Shown one piece after another: positions 20,172-48,227 of a stretch of DNA of 64,000 nt. The notes beneath the pieces were generated by a model. It made no database searches. It worked only from the letters and a program-made list of their open reading frames with translations, and had not been told where the DNA came from. This DNA is from Terriglobia bacterium (lineage in GTDB: Bacteria; Acidobacteriota; Terriglobia; UBA7540; JAPUME01). Positions within the stretch are counted from its first letter, which is position 1. Every line of letters starts with the position of its first letter. The stretch spans positions 710,132-774,131 of the forward strand of contig CBDEGR010000002.1 in the NCBI GenBank assembly GCA_965237895.1, given 5' to 3'. Made by a program: the position numbers and the translations under genes.

Positions 20172-21191
20172 ATGCCTCCCGCCTCTAGCCCGGAAAAAAA
20201 GTATGGGCGGGCCGTTCTGATCTACAATCCAGTGGCTGGCGGAAATCCCCGGAAAAAGGAGCGGCAAATCCGTAAGGTCGCCGCGGTCTTGACCCGGCAG
20301 GTTTCCGAGCTTGAAATCGCTCCGACCCGTGGGCCGGGCCAAGGCCGCGAGCTTGCCGCCTCGACGGTGCAAAAGGGCGCCTCGGTGATCTTCGTCTGGG
20401 GTGGGGACGGAACCATCAACGAAGTCGTCAACGGAATGGCCGGGTCGCGGGTTCCCTTGGCGGTGTTGTCCGGAGGTACGGCGAACATACTGGCGCGGAC
20501 CCTGAAGATGCCCCGTTCGCCGGTCCGTGGCGCGCGTGCCTTTTTGAACTGGGAGCCGCGGCGCATCGGGCTGGGATGCGTCACGTGGTTCAACCCCGAT
20601 CAAGGAAAGAGATTTTTCCTGAGCGTGGCCGGTGTGGGATTCGACGGCGCGGTGATCCGCAATCTTTCCTCGAAAAGTAAAAGGTATTTGGGGAAGGTGG
20701 CCTACGGGCTGGAAGGTCTTCGGCAGTGGTGGCGGCGGAATATTGTCCCCTTTGAAATCGTCGTGGGCGGCAACGTCCGGCGCACCGCATTTGTCGTGCT
20801 GGGGCGCGCTCCGAAGTACGGCGGCGGGTTTCGTATCACGCCCGGGTCCAGCATCTTTTCGGATAAGATGATCGCGACTGTTTTTCGTGGGACGCGGCGG
20901 CGTGATTACTTGAAGTATCTTGCGGGCATCGTGACGGGCCTGCATCCGAATTTCAACGACGTGGACGTGGAACCGGTCGTGAGCCTGGAGTGTCGAGTGC
21001 CGGCCGTTGACGTTGCATCTTCCGGCGAAGTTGAAGAGAACGTGGAAGTAGGAGTGGAAGTGGAAGTGGAAGTGGAAGTGGAAGTGGAAGTGGAAGTGGA
21101 AGTGGATGGAGAGCTGGTGGGAAATCTCCCGGCCCGCATCGAACTTTTGCCCGATATGCTGACGCTTCTGGTGCCGCCGGATTCAGGTTGA
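20172..21191 (+). CDS. diacylglycerol-kinase-family lipid kinase (YegS/BmrU-like) with an internal Val-Glu repeat
   Basis: VWGGDGTINEVVNG motif and a C-terminal ...DGELVGNLPARIELLPDMLTLLVP. (VE)8 is inserted just before the DGE motif. Confidence 0.85.
   Translation: MPPASSPEKKYGRAVLIYNPVAGGNPRKKERQIRKVAAVLTRQVSELEIAPTRGPGQGRELAASTVQKGASVIFVWGGDGTINEVVNGMAGSRVPLAVLSGGTANILARTLKMPRSPVRGARAFLNWEPRRIGLGCVTWFNPDQGKRFFLSVAGVGFDGAVIRNLSSKSKRYLGKVAYGLEGLRQWWRRNIVPFEIVVGGNVRRTAFVVLGRAPKYGGGFRITPGSSIFSDKMIATVFRGTRRRDYLKYLAGIVTGLHPNFNDVDVEPVVSLECRVPAVDVASSGEVEENVEVGVEVEVEVEVEVEVEVEVDGELVGNLPARIELLPDMLTLLVPPDSG
21042..21107 (+). repeat. coding hexanucleotide tandem repeat: (GTGGAA)8 perfect at 21054-21101, with degenerate flanking copies
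   Basis: Direct reading gives GTGGAA GTAGGA, then GTGGAA x8, then GTGGAT. This encodes VEVG(VE)8VD. Confidence 0.97.
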
Positions 21192-43417: not shown

Positions 43418-45325
43418 ATGGATTCCGGGCGATGCGGCGGGGAGCTGTTTGCGCGGTCCGGCCCGACGCGCGGCGGTGATCTCGCCGGAGAAGCGGAGGT
43501 AATCACGGGGATAAATAAAAGAGTGCGTCGGAAATATTACGTTGCCGTACTGAGTCTTGGTGCGGCGCTCGCAGGCGTTGCGAGTCCCGGCCCCGCCGAA
43601 GACTCTTCTTCGCCGGCCCAGCCGGTCTTTCCTCACGCCGCCCCGGGCGCGAAAGTAGGGGAAGTCACTTCCGAGGCCGCAATCATTCATAGTTATCTGT
43701 TAACCCGTTCCCCGGAACCCTTGTTGCAACAACCCTACGTCGAGCGGAAGTACGTAGGGATGCGCGGCGAGGTGGCGGTGGAGTACACCTCATCGGAGGC
43801 GAGTGAATTTGAGAGCCGGAGTTTACCCTTTTCTCCGGAAAATTTTCGCCGTTATCGTGCCGGCCTGCAGAACCGCCGCTTTACTCGGTGGTGGAAGGTT
43901 CCTCAGAATCACACCCTCACTTTAAATTCTCACGACCTGGCCTCAGTGGAGCGTCTGCGGGAAGCGAAGGCCGGCGATTACTCCGTCCGAATCCGCCTTG
44001 AGGGTCTCGAAGCGGCGACCCGATACCGTTTTCGATTGTGGGTGCGGGCGGGGGAGAACGCGCAGGTGCGGTCCGGGGCGGTGCAGGAATTTTCCACGGC
44101 TCCCGCTGCCGACGACCCCGCCGACGTCGGCTTTCTTGCCGTCACCTGTTTTAATTACGGCAAGATGAAGGACGTGCGGGATGGCAAGTGGCCGGTCGAG
44201 GGGTTTCGCCTTTTTCGGGCGATCCTGGACCGGGTCAAGGCCGGAAAGCTTTCCTTCGATTTTGCCGTCTTCAACGGGGACACCGTTTACCTTGACAAGC
44301 AGGGCCGGAACTACCGTAAGGGACGAGCCCGGCAGCCGGACCAGATGCGAGACCGGTATTTCGATTCCTACTTAACGCCTCTCGCCCGCGAATTTTTCGC
44401 TCGTTTCCCGGCCTACTTCCAGAAGGACGACCACGACTGGCGGTTCAACGACGCCGACCCGATCTTCAACCCACGAGCCCATGCCGGGAAAAAGATCGTC
44501 TCCGTCGGCAAGTACTATCGCGGTGAGCCGTCCGGTTGGCTGGGCAAGATGATCTTCGAGGAGATGCATCCGGTCGAGCGCGGCGCGGACCACCCCCCGT
44601 ATCGAACCTTCCGATGGGGGAAGGGCCTTCAGATCTGGATCCTCGAATCGCGCGAATGCCGCCACCCGAACGCGCGCCGGTTGCGGCGGTACGATATTCC
44701 GGGACTCCGGTTGCCGGACGCCTCCACCGGAAACTCTTACCTCTATTATCCGGATTACTGCGGCGAGGCCGGCGTAGAGGACCTGTGGGGTAAAAAGCAG
44801 ATTGCTTGGCTGCTCAGGACCTTGAAGGAGAGCGATGCCTACTTCAAAATAATCGTTTCGCCCACGCCCGTCTTGGGGCCGGACCAGAAGATCTATCCTC
44901 AGTTCGCCGCCAATCCTTTCCGCCGCAAGCAGGATAACCACGTCGTGCGTTTCCGTGAGGAATTCGGCCGGCTCCTTGATGCGCTCGAGCGGGAGAAGTT
45001 GCGGAACGTCTACTTTGTCTCCGGCGACCGTCATTTCATCTGGCACAGCCGCTACCGGCGCACGGAGGGGGACTTTGCGTTGGAGGAGTTCGGCAGCGGC
45101 CCGTTCGCCGACGACATTCACGCTTCCGGGAAGTTGCTCTATAAGGACGAGCAGGGAACCGGCGAAGTGGTGAAAAAGCTCAACAACCCCGGATTTCTTC
45201 ACGTGCAGGTGAAAAACGTTGCCCTCCAGCCCCGCCTGGTGGTCGAATGGTACGCGGTGAAGGATTGGGAAGCGCCGTCGATCCGGCTCTGGGGGCATCG
45301 GTTCGAGGCGCCCTATCTGCCTTAA
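43418..45325 (+). CDS. PhoD-like metallophosphatase (secreted)
   Basis: ...FAVFNGDTVYLD..., ...QKDDHDW..., ...VSGDRHFIWHS... metallophosphatase motifs. The true start is probably downstream, with a signal-like VAVLSLGAALAGVASP near 43540. Confidence 0.75.
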   Translation: MDSGRCGGELFARSGPTRGGDLAGEAEVITGINKRVRRKYYVAVLSLGAALAGVASPGPAEDSSSPAQPVFPHAAPGAKVGEVTSEAAIIHSYLLTRSPEPLLQQPYVERKYVGMRGEVAVEYTSSEASEFESRSLPFSPENFRRYRAGLQNRRFTRWWKVPQNHTLTLNSHDLASVERLREAKAGDYSVRIRLEGLEAATRYRFRLWVRAGENAQVRSGAVQEFSTAPAADDPADVGFLAVTCFNYGKMKDVRDGKWPVEGFRLFRAILDRVKAGKLSFDFAVFNGDTVYLDKQGRNYRKGRARQPDQMRDRYFDSYLTPLAREFFARFPAYFQKDDHDWRFNDADPIFNPRAHAGKKIVSVGKYYRGEPSGWLGKMIFEEMHPVERGADHPPYRTFRWGKGLQIWILESRECRHPNARRLRRYDIPGLRLPDASTGNSYLYYPDYCGEAGVEDLWGKKQIAWLLRTLKESDAYFKIIVSPTPVLGPDQKIYPQFAANPFRRKQDNHVVRFREEFGRLLDALEREKLRNVYFVSGDRHFIWHSRYRRTEGDFALEEFGSGPFADDIHASGKLLYKDEQGTGEVVKKLNNPGFLHVQVKNVALQPRLVVEWYAVKDWEAPSIRLWGHRFEAPYLP

Positions 45326-45513: not shown

Positions 45514-46068
45514 ATGTTTGTCGCCAAGAAAATTTTCCTGACCAAAGGTGTGGGCCAAAGCCGCGAGAAACTCAGTTCCTTTGAATTGGCGCTGCGCTCG
45601 GCGGGAATCGCCGCCTACAATCTTGTCCGCGTCTCCAGCATCTTTCCGCCCCGCTGCCGGCTGATCGGCCGCACGCAGGGAATGAAGATGTTGAAGCCCG
45701 GGCAGGTGGTCTTTTGCGTGATGAGCGAGAACGCCACGCGCGAGCCGCACCGCCTGATGGCCGCCTCGATCGGCCTGGCCCTCCCGGCCGATAAGAACAT
45801 GTACGGGTATCTCTCCGAGCACCACTCCTTCGGCCAAAACGAGGAAGTAGCCGGCGAGTATGCCGAAGAGCTGGCCGCCGAGATGCTCGCCACCACCCTC
45901 AACGTCGAGTTCGACCCGGAGCATAGCTGGGACGAAAAGAAAGAGATCTACCGCATTTCCAACCGCATCGTCCGCACGATGGAGGTCACACAGTCGGCGA
46001 TTGGAGATAAAAAAGGCCTATGGACCACCGTCCTGGCCGCCGCCATCATGCTGGGGAGTGAAGATTGA
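45514..46068 (+). CDS. pdaD: pyruvoyl-dependent arginine decarboxylase
   Basis: MFVAKKIFLTKGVGQSREKLSSFELALRSAGIAAYNLVRVSSIFPP, including the Ser-Ser self-cleavage site context. 184 aa. Confidence 0.88.
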   Translation: MFVAKKIFLTKGVGQSREKLSSFELALRSAGIAAYNLVRVSSIFPPRCRLIGRTQGMKMLKPGQVVFCVMSENATREPHRLMAASIGLALPADKNMYGYLSEHHSFGQNEEVAGEYAEELAAEMLATTLNVEFDPEHSWDEKKEIYRISNRIVRTMEVTQSAIGDKKGLWTTVLAAAIMLGSED

Positions 46069-46126
46069 CCTGGGGAGTGAAGATTGACCTGGGGAGTGAA
46101 AATTGCCCCGGGGAGTGAAAATTGAT
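46051..46126 (+). repeat. 19-bp direct tandem repeat x4 spanning the pdaD stop and the SD/start of the next gene
   Basis: The four copies are CTGGGGAGTGAAGATTGAC (46051-46069), an identical copy (46070-46088), CTGGGGAGTGAAAATTGCC (46089-46107) and CCGGGGAGTGAAAATTGAT (46108-46126). Confidence 0.97.
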
Positions 46127-47285
46127 GGATAAGAAAAACCCCACCAGCTCGCTTCCGACTTCGACCCCCGCGGCGCCTTCCTCCACACCGGGTCCCGCAC
46201 CTGACCCTGCATCTGATGAAGCTGAAATCTTTCTGACGGCGGAAGACGCCACCGAAAAAGCCGACCTTCTCTCCGTTCCCACCCGGCCCGTGAAGATCGA
46301 CGAAAACAAGAGCGTCCGCGGGCTGCTCGAAAAGATGGAAGGCATCTCCTTCCAGGGGCGGAACCTGGGACGCGCGCACCAGGTTTGGCGCGCCATGCTG
46401 AGCGAGCCGGTTATGATTATGATGGGCTTGGCCGGGGCGATGATCCCCGGCGGCATGCGCGAACTGGTCGTCTACATGATTCGGAACCGGCTGATCGATT
46501 GTGTGGTCGCCACCGGCGCGAATTTCTTCCACGACATTCACGAATCGCTGGGACGTTACCACTATCAGAGCAGTCCGGAAGCGGATGACGTACTGTTGCG
46601 GGACAATATGGTTGATCGCATGTACGACACGCTGCTCGACGAAGAAGAGTTCCGTGAACAGGATTCCTGGATTGGGCATTTTGCCGAGACGCTCGACGCC
46701 TCGCGGGCCTACACGACGCGCGAATTCCTCAATCTACTGGGCAAGGAGGCGGCAAAGATTTCCAAAGTGGACGGCATTGTGACCGCCGCGGCCAAGGCGG
46801 GCATACCGCTGTTTTGTCCTGCCATTGGGGATTCCTCCATCGGCATCGGCATCGCCGAGAACCGTAACCTGGGAAAGAACCGGCTGATGTTTGACGTCAT
46901 CGGCGACGTGGTGGAGACCTGTTACTTGGCGGGGGGTTCGCCGGTCTCCGGCGTTATCTATTTCGGCGGCGGCACGCCGAAGAATTTTATTCAGCAGAGC
47001 GAGGTCACGGCCACCTTTGAGCATGAAGCCAAGGGCGGGCACAAGTACGCGCTGCAGATCATTACCGACTCGCCTCACTGGGGCGGGCTTTCCGGCTGCA
47101 CGTTCGAAGAGGCCCAGAGTTGGGGCAAGATTCAGGATGGGGGCCAAATGGTGACGGTCCACTGCGACACCACCATTGCCATGCCGATGCTGGTGACGGC
47201 GCTCTCCGAGGATGAAGAGTTGATCCGCAACCGCAAGAAGCCCACGTTCGAGATGGGCCGGGAATTGAAATTCTGCTTCGACTGA
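46125..47285 (+). CDS. deoxyhypusine-synthase-like protein (candidate homospermidine synthase)
   Basis: ...GRNLGRAHQVWRAML...MGLAGAMIPGGMRELVVYMIRNRLIDCVVATGANFFHD... is a DHS-family core, with a low-complexity Pro/Ser/Thr N-terminus. ATG at 46125 (TTG at 46122 in the track). Confidence 0.82.
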   Translation: MDKKNPTSSLPTSTPAAPSSTPGPAPDPASDEAEIFLTAEDATEKADLLSVPTRPVKIDENKSVRGLLEKMEGISFQGRNLGRAHQVWRAMLSEPVMIMMGLAGAMIPGGMRELVVYMIRNRLIDCVVATGANFFHDIHESLGRYHYQSSPEADDVLLRDNMVDRMYDTLLDEEEFREQDSWIGHFAETLDASRAYTTREFLNLLGKEAAKISKVDGIVTAAAKAGIPLFCPAIGDSSIGIGIAENRNLGKNRLMFDVIGDVVETCYLAGGSPVSGVIYFGGGTPKNFIQQSEVTATFEHEAKGGHKYALQIITDSPHWGGLSGCTFEEAQSWGKIQDGGQMVTVHCDTTIAMPMLVTALSEDEELIRNRKKPTFEMGRELKFCFD

Positions 47286-47336: not shown

Positions 47337-48227
47337 ATGCTCAGCGGTTATCCCGCCCGATGCCCGGAAACGTTTGCCGGGCTGCCGCCGGCTCAATCCG
47401 ATTACCAGACTTCACCCATCGTCATCTGGCCGATTCCTCTCGACCGCACCACTTCCTATAAAGCCGGAACGCGCTACGGGCCGCGCGCCCTGCTGGAAGC
47501 CTCGCGCAACATGGAGACCTTTGACGAAGAAATTTGGGCGGAAGTCTGCGAGCGCGGTATTGCGACGCTGCCGGAGATGGAGACCGAAGAGGGCAGCCTC
47601 AACCAGGTGATGGCCAACATCCGCACCGTGGCCGGGCAACTGGCGAGGGAGGGAAAATTCACCGTAGCGCTCGGCGGCGAGCACTCGCTGACCGGGCCGA
47701 TCGTCTCCGCCTTTGCGAAAAAGTTTTCGGATTTGACGGTGCTGCAAATCGACGCTCACGCCGACCTACGCGAAGCCTATCAGCAGAAGCCGCACAGTCA
47801 CGCCTCTGTCATGCGCCGCGTGGTGGAGATTTGCCCGGCCGTGCAAGTCGGCATCCGCAGCCTTTCCCAGGAGGAGGCGGATGTTCTGGATCAACTGCCG
47901 ACGAAAATCTTCTGGGCCAAGGACCTACGCTCGCGTCCCGCCGCCGAGTGGGCCGAGGAGATCGTCAAGGATTTGAGCGACCATGTCTACATGACGATCG
48001 ATCTTGACGGCTTCGACCCGGCCTACCTACCCGCCACGGGAACGCCCGAACCGGGCGGGCTCGACTGGTATCAGGTGACCGACCTGGTGCGTGCCGTGGC
48101 CGCGAAGAAGAAGATTGTATCGATGGACGTCGTCGAACTCCTGCCTCAGCCCGGCCATCATGCCTCGGACTTCCTCGCCGCCAAGCTCATCTATAAGTGC
48201 CTGGGGACCATCTTCGGCCGAAGGTAG
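47337..48227 (+). CDS. speB: agmatinase (arginase family)
   Basis: ...ALGGEHSLTGPIV...QIDAHADLR...HASVMRR...MTIDLDGFDP...TPEPGGL... are Mn-binding arginase-fold motifs. Confidence 0.88.
   Translation: MLSGYPARCPETFAGLPPAQSDYQTSPIVIWPIPLDRTTSYKAGTRYGPRALLEASRNMETFDEEIWAEVCERGIATLPEMETEEGSLNQVMANIRTVAGQLAREGKFTVALGGEHSLTGPIVSAFAKKFSDLTVLQIDAHADLREAYQQKPHSHASVMRRVVEICPAVQVGIRSLSQEEADVLDQLPTKIFWAKDLRSRPAAEWAEEIVKDLSDHVYMTIDLDGFDPAYLPATGTPEPGGLDWYQVTDLVRAVAAKKKIVSMDVVELLPQPGHHASDFLAAKLIYKCLGTIFGRR

What the first reader, a model, noticed from the sequence alone, without database searches (positions are those of the whole stretch)
46051..46126. 19-bp tandem repeat (x4) built from the pdaD stop and the ribosome-binding site/start of the DHS-like gene
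There are four head-to-tail copies of CTGGGGAGTGAAGATTGAC. The first two are identical and the last two differ at 2-3 positions each. Copy 1 supplies the last codons and the stop of pdaD (LGSED-TGA). Copy 4 supplies GGGGAG plus the ATG (46125) of the next gene. Every copy carries an SD-like GGGGAG and one or two TGA triplets. The unit length is not a multiple of 3. A repeat exactly at a stop/restart junction inside an operon is unusual. It could tune translational coupling or reinitiation spacing, vary in copy number by slippage, or be a duplication scar.
Basis: seen in the sequence. Interest (0 to 1): 0.6.

Follow-up and report, generated by a model that had tools for sequence, protein, structure and literature searches.

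The report
Variable repeat born from gene overlap
The 19-base repeat between two polyamine-synthesis genes is real: it arose when the original four-base stop/start overlap was copied in tandem, and near-identical wild relatives of this uncultured soil-type bacterium carry 1 to 10 copies, so it changes quickly and probably, though this is untested, alters how much of the second enzyme is made.

Summary
Observation confirmed. There are four head-to-tail 19-bp units at 46051-46126, where 0 are expected by chance, and this is the only such site in the 3.0-Mb genome.

Three sister genera carry one unit. In them the pdaD stop TGA overlaps the TTG start of the DHS-like gene (GGGGAG-N6-TTGA). The array is therefore an in-situ amplification of a translational-coupling junction, not an inserted element.

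Independent metagenome contigs encoding the identical PdaD protein carry 1, 2, 4, 5, 6, 7 or 10 units. Five contigs with no differences in the adjacent ~580 nt carry 2, 4, 5, 7 and 10 units. It is a hypermutable VNTR, not assembly stutter.

Every unit keeps an SD, a TTG and TGA stops. The relic starts open 9-17-codon mini-ORFs that end 6 nt before, 1 nt into or 8 nt into the real start. The DHS-like gene stays intact and under purifying selection.

An effect on translation is plausible but untested. No CsrA gene, Rfam family, promoter or unusually stable RNA fold was found. The closest analogue is MIRU-VNTR, but the array fails MIRU membership because it is single-locus, 19 bp and locally derived.

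Verdict: a new variant of a known kind, of moderate interest.

The parts
45514..46068 (+). pdaD, pyruvoyl-dependent arginine decarboxylase, 184 aa. Its last five codons plus the stop lie in unit 1.
   Evidence: ORF. Pfam PF01862, E=5e-59. The identical protein is encoded on 13 public contigs.
46051..46069 (+). Unit 1, CTGGGGAGTGAAGATTGAC. It holds the PdaD C-terminus LGSED, the stop TGA at 46066-46068, and the relic ancestral start TTG at 46065-46067.
   Evidence: It equals the single unit of one-copy alleles L037, L039, L041 and L130 and matches the G001-G003 junctions.
46070..46088 (+). Unit 2, a perfect copy. It carries SD GGGGAG and relic TTG at 46084-46086.
   Evidence: The number of perfect units is what varies between alleles: 2, 3, 4 or 8.
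46089..46107 (+). Unit 3, degenerate, CTGGGGAGTGAAAATTGCC. The TTGAC-type TGA is lost. It carries relic TTG at 46103-46105.
   Evidence: The same unit is penultimate in the 5-, 7- and 10-copy alleles L134, L043 and L036.
46108..46126 (+). Unit 4, CCGGGGAGTGAAAATTGAT. It supplies the working SD (46110-46115) and the DHS-like start: TTG at 46122 (ancestral) and ATG at 46125 (derived).
   Evidence: The 16S 3' end is GGATCACCTCCTTTCTA, so GGGGAG can pair with the anti-SD. The spacer from SD to TTG is 6 nt.
46065..46118 (+). Mini-ORF 1, from relic TTG1, which overlaps the pdaD stop. It encodes MTWGVKIDLGSENCPGE* (17 codons). Its stop TGA at 46116-46118 starts 6 nt before the DHS TTG.
   Evidence: This is inferred from sequence; translation has not been shown.
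46084..46125 (+). Mini-ORF 2, from relic TTG2. It encodes MTWGVKIAPGSEN* (13 codons). Its stop TGA at 46123-46125 overlaps both TTG 46122 (TTGA) and ATG 46125 (TGATG).
46103..46132 (+). Mini-ORF 3, from relic TTG3. It encodes MPRGVKIDG* (9 codons). Its stop TAA at 46130-46132 lies 8 nt inside the DHS-like ORF, out of frame.
46122..47285 (+). Deoxyhypusine-synthase-family gene, a predicted homospermidine-synthase-like enzyme of 386/387 aa. It has an N-terminal P/S/T-rich extension of about 45-65 aa.
   Evidence: Pfam PF01916, E=1.2e-86, domain at residues 67-359. It is intact in all alleles, with dN/dS 0.05-0.12 overall and 0.12-0.27 over the first 65 codons. No other in-frame start lies upstream of the conserved LLSVPTRP motif.
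47337..48227 (+). Agmatinase (arginase family), the third gene of the polyamine operon. It starts 51 nt after the DHS-like stop.
   Evidence: Pfam PF00491, E=2.2e-70. The same gene order is seen in all longer contigs.

Best explanation
The array is a hypermutable variable-number tandem repeat. It was born in place by tandem duplication of the ancestral pdaD/DHS-like junction.

In the ancestral state one 19-nt segment holds three things: the last PdaD codons, which double as the Shine-Dalgarno GGGGAG; the TTG start of the DHS-like gene; and the pdaD stop TGA, which overlaps that TTG by TTGA. This is a classic termination-reinitiation coupling junction.

The duplicated segment contains the stop, the SD and the start. 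Duplicating it therefore changes neither protein: unit 1 still ends PdaD and the last unit still starts the DHS-like gene. Such duplications are tolerated. Once two identical units exist, replication slippage or unequal recombination adds and removes units quickly (shown: 1-10 units in one species).

Each added unit pushes the two cistrons 19 nt further apart. The distance from the stop to the TTG is 53 nt in this window and 167 nt in the 10-copy allele. Each added unit also brings another full SD-TTG-TGA module.

Inferred, not shown: direct stop/start coupling is lost. It is replaced by independent initiation at the last unit, helped in multi-copy alleles by a new ATG. Ribosomes may also be relayed through 9-17-codon mini-ORFs, whose stops fall at -6, +1 and +8 nt from the real start. 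Under this reading copy number shifts the DHS-like:PdaD (and possibly agmatinase) ratio quantitatively. Neither the direction nor the size of that shift is known.
For: - **Origin.** G001, G002 and G003 (three other genera of the same family) and L045 have a single unit...CT(C/T/G)GGGAG(T/C)GAA(G/A)ATTGAA..., with TGA overlapping TTG. Conspecific contigs L037, L038, L039, L041 and L130 also have one unit.
- **Locus.** The motif occurs at only one locus in the genome.
- **Variation.** Units number 1, 2, 4, >=4, 5, 6, 7 and 10 in contigs from different samples and assemblies that encode an identical or >90%-identical PdaD.
- **Speed of change.** WIN, L134, L043, L036 and L035 have no differences in the 530 nt upstream (351 nt available for L134) and 48 nt downstream, yet carry 4, 5, 7, 10 and 2 units. 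Flank identity over the available flank, up to about 5 kb, is 99.6-99.9%.
- **Pattern of change.** Alleles with 4, 5, 7 and 10 units share the same two degenerate 3' units. They differ mainly in the number of perfect 5' units, as slippage predicts.
- **Not stutter.** Units carry specific substitutions. The 2-copy allele sits on a 2.9-Mb contig and the 10-copy allele on a 1.16-Mb contig at 17.7x.
- **Downstream gene.** It is intact and constrained in all alleles, and the array-end start is the only usable one.
- **Relay geometry.**
- **Anti-SD.** The 16S 3' end is canonical.
- **Literature.** Coupling by reinitiation needs an overlap or a very short distance, and short ORFs can deliver ribosomes to a downstream gene (review PMC12548453).
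Against: - No expression data of any kind exist. The effect on translation is inferred from geometry only.
- The wide spread of copy numbers in otherwise identical backgrounds fits near-neutral drift as well as tuning.
- Predicted RNA structure gives no help. The fold of the region is not more stable than shuffles (z=-0.98). Predicted accessibility of the last SD changes erratically with copy number.
- Some short-read contigs are low coverage (L043 at 2.8x; L129 and L131 break inside the array), so individual counts could be off by a unit.
- The link between ATG and high copy number rests on one or two lineages.
Confidence: 0.8

Rival explanations
1. Neutral duplication scar. The array is a slippage-prone repeat that persists only because it harms nothing. 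The last unit's SD and start give normal, copy-number-independent translation of the DHS-like gene, and the relic units are ignored or irrelevant. This differs from the best explanation only in denying any quantitative effect on expression.
For: Many copy numbers coexist in identical backgrounds. The DHS-like gene is equally intact and constrained with 1 or with many units. The genome has other short arrays that begin on a stop codon (C2:668436 and C2:664167), which suggests a general tolerance filter rather than a purpose. No special RNA structure was found.
Against: Moving a coupled start 19-171 nt from the upstream stop, and adding up to nine competing SD-TTG sites, would be expected to change initiation, given what is known of coupling (PMC12548453). 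All alleles with >=4 units have acquired an ATG start, and the penultimate-unit TGA loss keeps the mini-ORF stops next to the real start. This may be coincidence.
Confidence: 0.35
2. Assembly artefact. The true sequence has one unit and the assembler stuttered.
For: Tandem repeats are error-prone in assemblies. Several short-read contigs break inside the array (L129, L131, L044). Reads could not be checked.
Against: Units 3 and 4 differ from units 1 and 2 at defined positions, and the same degenerate units recur in four other independent assemblies. Multi-copy alleles occur on megabase contigs. Alleles of 2 units occur with three different second-unit sequences.
Confidence: 0.03
3. Inserted mobile repeat (MIRU- or MITE-like) that landed on the start codon and brought its own SD and mini-ORF.
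For: The position and the ORF overlaps resemble MIRUs (PMC12548453; PMC3184786).
Against: The unit is the native sequence of the junction in single-copy orthologues, including the conserved PdaD C-terminus LGSE(D/N). There are no other copies in the genome. The unit has no inverted repeats and no target duplication other than the unit itself.
Confidence: 0.01
4. Binding platform for an RNA-binding regulator: repeated GGA/GGGGAG motifs spaced 19 nt apart, as for CsrA-type or TRAP-like proteins, or a riboswitch-like element.
For: Each unit has a GGA-containing purine motif at regular spacing.
Against: The 99.4%-complete genome has no CsrA family gene, while the controls did hit. There is no Rfam match at E<=1. 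Single-copy relatives have only the ordinary SD. No fold stability was found.
Confidence: 0.02

Closest known systems
MIRU-VNTR loci of mycobacteria (e.g. the senX3-regX3 intergenic repeats; Supply et al. 1997, as summarised in PMC12548453 and PMC3184786)
   Same: Both are tandem units that sit between two genes of one operon. Both contain short ORFs whose ends overlap the stop and start of the flanking genes at -4 nt spacing. Both are thought to pass ribosomes on so that the downstream gene is still expressed. In both, copy number varies between strains.
   Different: MIRUs are 40-100 bp, occur at about 40-50 loci per genome and look like inserted, possibly mobile, elements. This unit is 19 bp and present at one locus. 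It is demonstrably the native junction sequence, amplified in place, and lies in an uncultured Acidobacteriota lineage.
Bacterial simple-sequence or VNTR contingency loci (slipped-strand mispairing repeats in or near genes of Haemophilus, Neisseria and others; named from general knowledge)
   Same: Head-to-tail identical units, a very high rate of gain and loss relative to point mutation, and a position where unit number can alter expression of an adjacent gene.
   Different: Classical contingency repeats are 1-8 nt units. They lie in coding regions, giving frame on/off switching, or in promoters, changing spacing. They are found mostly in host-associated bacteria and affect surface or restriction genes. 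Here the unit is 19 nt and sits at an intercistronic translation junction of a housekeeping polyamine operon in an environmental bacterium. No phenotype is shown.
Translational coupling by termination-reinitiation at 4-nt overlaps (ATGA/TTGA/GTGA; reviewed in PMC12548453, with Huber et al. 2019 and 2023 cited there)
   Same: The one-unit ancestral allele is a textbook case: the SD lies inside the upstream gene's last codons and the stop overlaps the start.
   Different: In the window allele the stop and the real start are 53-56 nt apart. Direct coupling is not expected at that distance. Only a relay through mini-ORFs, or independent initiation, could serve.
Junction-born tandem arrays noted earlier in this scan (e1-2345696: 13-bp unit from an ATGA overlap, 2 versus 9 copies; e1-1522412: 26-bp unit at soxB/soxD, 1-5 copies). 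These are unchecked AI notes.
   Same: The same logic applies: the unit is a copy of a stop/SD/start junction, copy number varies between close relatives, and mini-ORFs are rebuilt in each unit.
   Different: They involve different genes, unit lengths and phyla. The present case has the broadest allele series (1-10 units) and single-copy outgroups in three genera.

Membership tests
Variable-number tandem repeat (VNTR / minisatellite-like locus) | Head-to-tail repeated units well above chance | tested here: met
   TRF period 19, 3.9 copies, score 122. Four matches against 0 in 100 shuffles.
Variable-number tandem repeat (VNTR / minisatellite-like locus) | Copy number differs between closely related genomes while the flanks are conserved | tested here: met
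   1, 2, 4, 5, 6, 7 and 10 units. Five contigs with identical adjacent sequence carry five different numbers. Flank identity is 99.6-99.9%.
Variable-number tandem repeat (VNTR / minisatellite-like locus) | Heterogeneity within a population or sample at read level | not testable with these tools
Indirect hint only: sample ERZ25083856 yielded two different allele fragments, L044 and L131.
MIRU (mycobacterial interspersed repetitive unit) | Dispersed family with tens of loci per genome | tested here: not met
   The motif occurs only at this locus in the 3.0-Mb genome.
MIRU (mycobacterial interspersed repetitive unit) | Unit of about 40-100 bp that is foreign to the insertion site (an empty site exists without the unit sequence) | tested here: not met
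   The unit is 19 bp. The 'empty' sites in orthologues still contain exactly one unit as native coding and RBS sequence.
MIRU (mycobacterial interspersed repetitive unit) | Intercistronic position with internal ORFs overlapping the flanking stop and start codons | tested here: met
   perfect units form 13-codon ORFs, each with a TGA that overlaps the TTG two units on. The first TTG overlaps the pdaD stop.
Termination-reinitiation coupled gene pair | Same-strand genes with an overlapping stop/start or a gap of very few nt, and an SD inside the upstream gene | tested here: not met
   This is met in one-copy alleles and sister genera (TTGA overlap). In the window allele the gap from the stop to the TTG is 53 nt.
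Termination-reinitiation coupled gene pair | Downstream translation depends on upstream translation | not testable with these tools
   This needs reporter fusions or ribosome profiling.
Phase-variable contingency locus | Repeat-number change measurably switches or grades expression of the linked gene | not testable with these tools
   Only the geometry and inconclusive folding are available.
CsrA-type regulator binding site array | A cognate RNA-binding protein is encoded in the genome | tested here: not met
   PF02599 is absent from the 99.4%-complete genome. It was found in 3 of the 14 control genomes, among them E. coli, B. subtilis and T. maritima.

The most novel reading that the evidence does not exclude
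The array is a selectively maintained, slippage-adjustable translational relay. It would be a chain of SD-TTG-TGA mini-cistrons that hands ribosomes from pdaD to the DHS-like gene. Unit number, and its parity and phase (19 = 3x6+1), would set the dosage of the homospermidine-synthase-like enzyme relative to arginine decarboxylase. That would make it a contingency-type rheostat for polyamine metabolism in a free-living environmental Acidobacteriota population. In this reading the TTGAC-to-TTGCC change in the penultimate unit and the new ATG are compensatory adaptations that keep every copy-number state productive. Together with similar arrays seen elsewhere in this scan, it would define a general, unnamed class of self-generated junction relays.
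Probability: 0.15. Interest if true: 0.7.

Novelty: new variant of a known kind. Interest (0 to 1): 0.45.

Why it matters
The locus gives an unusually clean natural history of how a tandem repeat is born in a compact bacterial operon. Ancestral one-unit states exist in three genera, and a 1-to-10-unit allele series exists inside one species.

It shows that a stop/SD/start overlap is one of the few places where a duplication of non-multiple-of-3 length leaves both proteins untouched. That may explain why such arrays recur at gene junctions.

If unit number changes downstream translation, the allele series becomes a ready-made natural experiment on the distance dependence of translational coupling and on ribosome relay by mini-ORFs. 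It would also extend contingency-type variation from pathogens to housekeeping polyamine metabolism in environmental bacteria.

If unit number has no effect, the array is simply a good strain-typing marker for this uncultured lineage.

Tried and rejected
- **JGI metagenome scan** with ATCATGCTGGGGAGTGAAGATTGA: 0 hits. The lineage is absent from that collection, and a second scan was judged pointless because every allele starts with this string.
- **Search of the full records behind L035 and L036** to compare other repeats: the records are not held.
- **Comparator array.** The 18-mer array at C2:668436 is identical in G000 and in the contig that carries the 10-unit allele. Not every array in this species is equally unstable, but this rests on a single comparator.
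- **CsrA-type platform:** rejected, no csrA gene.
- **Known RNA family or riboswitch:** none at E<=1.
- **Internal promoter from the TTGAC boxes:** no sigma-70-like site. The hexamer spacings are also wrong.
- **Special RNA structure.** The fold z-score is -0.98. The alifold SD/anti-SD pairing across genera is weak, at -3.9 kcal/mol with a 32-nt loop. Per-allele SD accessibility is erratic. I treat all of this as inconclusive.
- **Programmed +1 frameshifting of the RF2 type at GAU-UGA-C.** I considered this from the sequence and rejected it. The P-site codon GAU cannot re-pair in the +1 frame, and the +1 frame does not lead into the DHS frame.
- **PdaD-DHS fusion by read-through:** rejected, because every frame is closed within two units.
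- **Mobile-element insertion:** rejected.
- **Agmatinase look-up for further alleles:** no new contigs.

Full report
**1. The observation**

The window carries four head-to-tail 19-bp units at 46051-46126:
- units 1 and 2: CTGGGGAGTGAAGATTGAC
- unit 3: CTGGGGAGTGAAAATTGCC
- unit 4: CCGGGGAGTGAAAATTGAT

TRF scores the array 122. None of 100 dinucleotide-preserving shuffles gave a single match. The core motif occurs nowhere else in the 2,997,092-bp, 99.4%-complete genome.

The flanking ORFs are as follows:
- a PhoD-like phosphatase, 43418-45325
- pdaD, 45514-46068 (PF01862, E=5e-59)
- a deoxyhypusine-synthase-family gene, 46122/46125-47285 (PF01916, E=1.2e-86)
- an agmatinase, 47337-48227 (PF00491)

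Unit 1 encodes the PdaD C-terminus LGSED and its TGA stop. Unit 4 supplies GGGGAG and the start of the next gene.

**2. Where the unit comes from**

All 41 genomes searched, the window's own and 40 relatives from the same family and order, have pdaD. In the three other genomes of the same family (three assemblies, two other genera; L006-L008) and in L045, the junction is a single unit. It reads ...CTSGGGAGYGAARATTGAAG..., and the pdaD stop TGA overlaps a TTG by TTGA.

In two of those three genomes, and in the window's own species, that TTG is the only in-frame start upstream of the conserved (I/L)LSxPTRP motif of the DHS-family protein. In G003 an in-frame ATG at +99 is also possible.

The ancestral junction is therefore a standard termination-reinitiation junction. 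The SD (GGGAG) is made of the last PdaD codons and lies 6 nt from a TTG start that overlaps the stop. The organism's 16S rRNA ends in GGATCACCTCCTTTCTA, so it has the canonical anti-SD.

The 19-bp unit is exactly this junction. The array is an in-place amplification of it, not an inserted element.

The nearest named genomes are uncultured Acidobacteriota/Terriglobia MAGs.

**3. Copy number in the population**

An exact look-up of the window's PdaD protein returned 13 public contigs, of which 10 were shown. Look-ups of the other members of the PdaD and DHS 90% clusters added more. Counting units in each contig gives:

| Units | Contigs |
|---|---|
| 1 | L037, L038, L039, L041, L130 (and L125, L126, a more distant relative at about 86-89% flank identity) |
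| 2 | L035 (2.9-Mb contig), L040, L044, L042, L127 |
| 4 | the window |
| at least 4 | L129 (contig ends inside the array) |
| 5 | L134 |
| 6 | L128 |
| 7 | L043 |
| 10 | L036 (1.16-Mb contig at 17.7x) |

WIN, L134, L043, L036 and L035 show no differences in the 530 nt upstream (351 nt available for L134) and 48 nt downstream of the array. They nevertheless carry 4, 5, 7, 10 and 2 units. Over the available flank, up to about 5 kb, they are 99.6-99.9% identical.

The 4-, 5-, 7- and 10-unit alleles share the same two degenerate 3' units. They differ mainly in the number of perfect 5' units (2, 3, 4, 8). This is the pattern expected from slipped-strand mispairing among identical units.

More divergent contigs, at 92-98% flank identity, have 1 or 2 units. 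L129 is the exception. Three different second-unit sequences exist among the 2-unit alleles, so duplication has probably happened more than once.

These facts rule out assembly stutter as the general explanation. Individual low-coverage short-read counts such as L043 (2.8x) could still be off by a unit.

A comparator array, an 18-mer repeated 4.3 times at C2:668436, is identical between this genome and the contig with the 10-unit allele. The pdaD array is therefore not just one of many equally unstable repeats, but this is a single comparison.

**4. What each unit contains and what follows from it**

Each unit has GGGGAG, a 6-nt spacer, TTG, and two TGA triplets in different frames. Because 19 = 18+1, successive units shift the frame by +1, and all three frames are closed within two units. 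No PdaD extension or PdaD-DHS fusion can arise.

In perfect units the TTG of unit k opens a 13-codon ORF, MTWGVKIDLGSED*. Its TGA lies in unit k+2 and overlaps that unit's TTG. The result is a chain of stop/start-overlapping mini-cistrons that begins at the pdaD stop.

In the window allele:
- TTG1 (46065) gives a 17-codon ORF that ends at TGA 46116-46118, starting 6 nt before the real TTG. It reads past unit 3 because that unit has lost its TGA (TTGCC).
- TTG2 (46084) gives a 13-codon ORF that ends at TGA 46123-46125. This stop overlaps both TTG 46122 and ATG 46125.
- TTG3 (46103) gives a 9-codon ORF that ends at TAA 46130-46132, inside the DHS ORF and out of frame.

The same three end points (-6, +1, +8) hold for the 5-, 7- and 10-unit alleles.

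All of this is read from the sequence. Whether the relic starts are used is not known.

**5. State of the downstream gene**

The DHS-family ORF is intact in every allele. Between the window and one-unit alleles, dN/dS is 0.05-0.12 overall and 0.12-0.27 over the first 65 codons. One in-frame 3-nt indel is present. The gene is therefore functional and is translated from the start at the end of the array, whatever the unit number.

All alleles with at least 4 units have TTGATGG, a new ATG one codon after the TTG. Among 2-unit alleles 2 of 5 have it. Among 1-unit alleles none of 5 do. This would fit compensation for lost coupling, but the multi-unit alleles belong to one or two lineages, so it is weak evidence.

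**6. Most likely mechanism**

Shown:
- The array is a junction-born, hypermutable VNTR.
- It is tolerated because the duplicated segment rebuilds the stop of the upstream gene and the SD and start of the downstream gene.

Inferred:
- The review of coupling (PMC12548453) states that coupling by reinitiation needs an overlap or a very short distance. It also states that a short upstream ORF can deliver ribosomes to a gene.
- By that standard the 53-nt (window) to 167-nt (10 units) separation should abolish direct pdaD-to-DHS coupling.
- It would be replaced by de novo initiation at the last unit's SD and ATG, with or without relay through the mini-ORFs.
- Competing relic SD-TTG sites and the +8 overlapping mini-ORF could also interfere with initiation.

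I therefore expect unit number to change the DHS-like:PdaD ratio, but I cannot say in which direction. My odds are:
- about 0.95 that the origin and VNTR status are right
- about 0.5-0.6 that unit number measurably changes translation
- about 0.15 that the variation is selectively maintained as a rheostat

**7. Rivals tested**

- CsrA-type binding array: no csrA gene in the genome, while the controls were positive.
- Known RNA family: none.
- Promoter made of the TTGAC boxes: none.
- Stable RNA structure: z=-0.98.
- SD/anti-SD pairing conserved across genera: weak, 6 pairs, -3.9 kcal/mol.
- Per-allele accessibility of the last SD: erratic.
- Mobile MIRU-like insertion: rejected, because the unit is native sequence and occurs at a single locus.

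**8. Comparison with what is known**

The closest described system is MIRU-VNTR. These are tandem units between operon genes, with internal ORFs that overlap the flanking stop and start at -4 nt, thought to preserve downstream expression (PMC12548453; PMC3184786).

The present array works like one in position, ORF overlaps and variability. It fails the defining features of the family: a dispersed multi-locus distribution, 40-100-bp units, and units foreign to the site.

It is a VNTR by every testable criterion. It resembles contingency loci in mutability, but no expression effect is shown.

Two earlier AI notes of this scan describe the same kind of junction-born array in unrelated genomes (e1-2345696 and e1-1522412). 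I did not test them. They suggest the phenomenon recurs.

**9. Verdict**

The feature is real, and its origin and instability are unusually well documented. Its functional meaning is unproven. I rate it a new variant of a known kind, with interest 0.45.

Noticed in passing
L064, L067 (=L020), L076 (=L028), L060, L054, L056: first ~150 nt after the pdaD stop: In the sister family of Terriglobia MAGs, the 100-150-nt pdaD-to-DHS spacer often begins right after the stop with heptamer tandem repeats (GTGAAGT x5.9, AGGAATT x4.3, CAGCAAT x5.6, GAAGCAA x4.4). In three of them (L064, L067, L076) the reverse complement of the heptamer recurs 60-100 nt downstream, which gives long hairpins built of 7-mers. 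The unit differs in each genome. About 7 of 53 loci show this.
   Followed up: partly
L135:4537-4613 (own genome C2:668436-668512): An 18-mer array, GTGAATAGACTCCCGGGG x4.3, has a first unit that holds the TGA stop of a 236-aa LTXXQ/Metal_resist-family ORF. This is another repeat that starts exactly on a stop codon. It is identical in contig ctg495241.
   Followed up: partly
L135:268-323 (own genome C2:664167-664222): An 11-mer array, GCGGGTAAGAG x5.1, begins on the TAA stop of the ORF at C2:663506-664174.
   Followed up: no
L136:223-277 (own genome C2:587322-587376): A 14-mer array, CTCTGAAACTGAAC x3.9, ends 2 nt before the ATG of a 125-aa ORF. No obvious SD is present.
   Followed up: no
window 21027-21106: A hexamer repeat, GAAGTG x13.3, lies in frame inside the 339-aa ORF at 20172-21191. 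It encodes a (VE)n run near the C-terminus (...EVEENVEVGVEVEVEVEVEVEVEVEVDGELVG...). It is likely another slippage-prone repeat, this one coding.
   Followed up: partly
window 46122-46320; L006-L008: In this family the DHS-like protein carries a low-complexity N-terminal extension of about 45 aa that reaches back to the pdaD stop. The sister family starts about 45 residues later, at MRKHEILSxPTxP, after a 100-150-nt spacer. G003 (L006) still has an in-frame ATG at that later position (+99). The former spacer seems to have become coding.
   Followed up: partly
L009, L010, L015, L018, L024, L025, L031-L033 and others: about 100-150 nt upstream of the pdaD start: A nearly invariant block of about 35 nt lies upstream of pdaD across many genera of the sister family. 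It appears as its reverse complement in the output: GTAACGTAACAAAAAGCCGAGAAAAGTGTCAACGGATTTT. On the coding strand this reads TTGACAC-N16-TTACGTTAC. It could be a conserved promoter or operator of the polyamine operon.
   Followed up: no
L044 and L131 (both from sample ERZ25083856): Two different allele fragments of the array come from one sample, and both contigs break at or next to the array. This hints at co-existing alleles that defeat short-read assembly.
   Followed up: no
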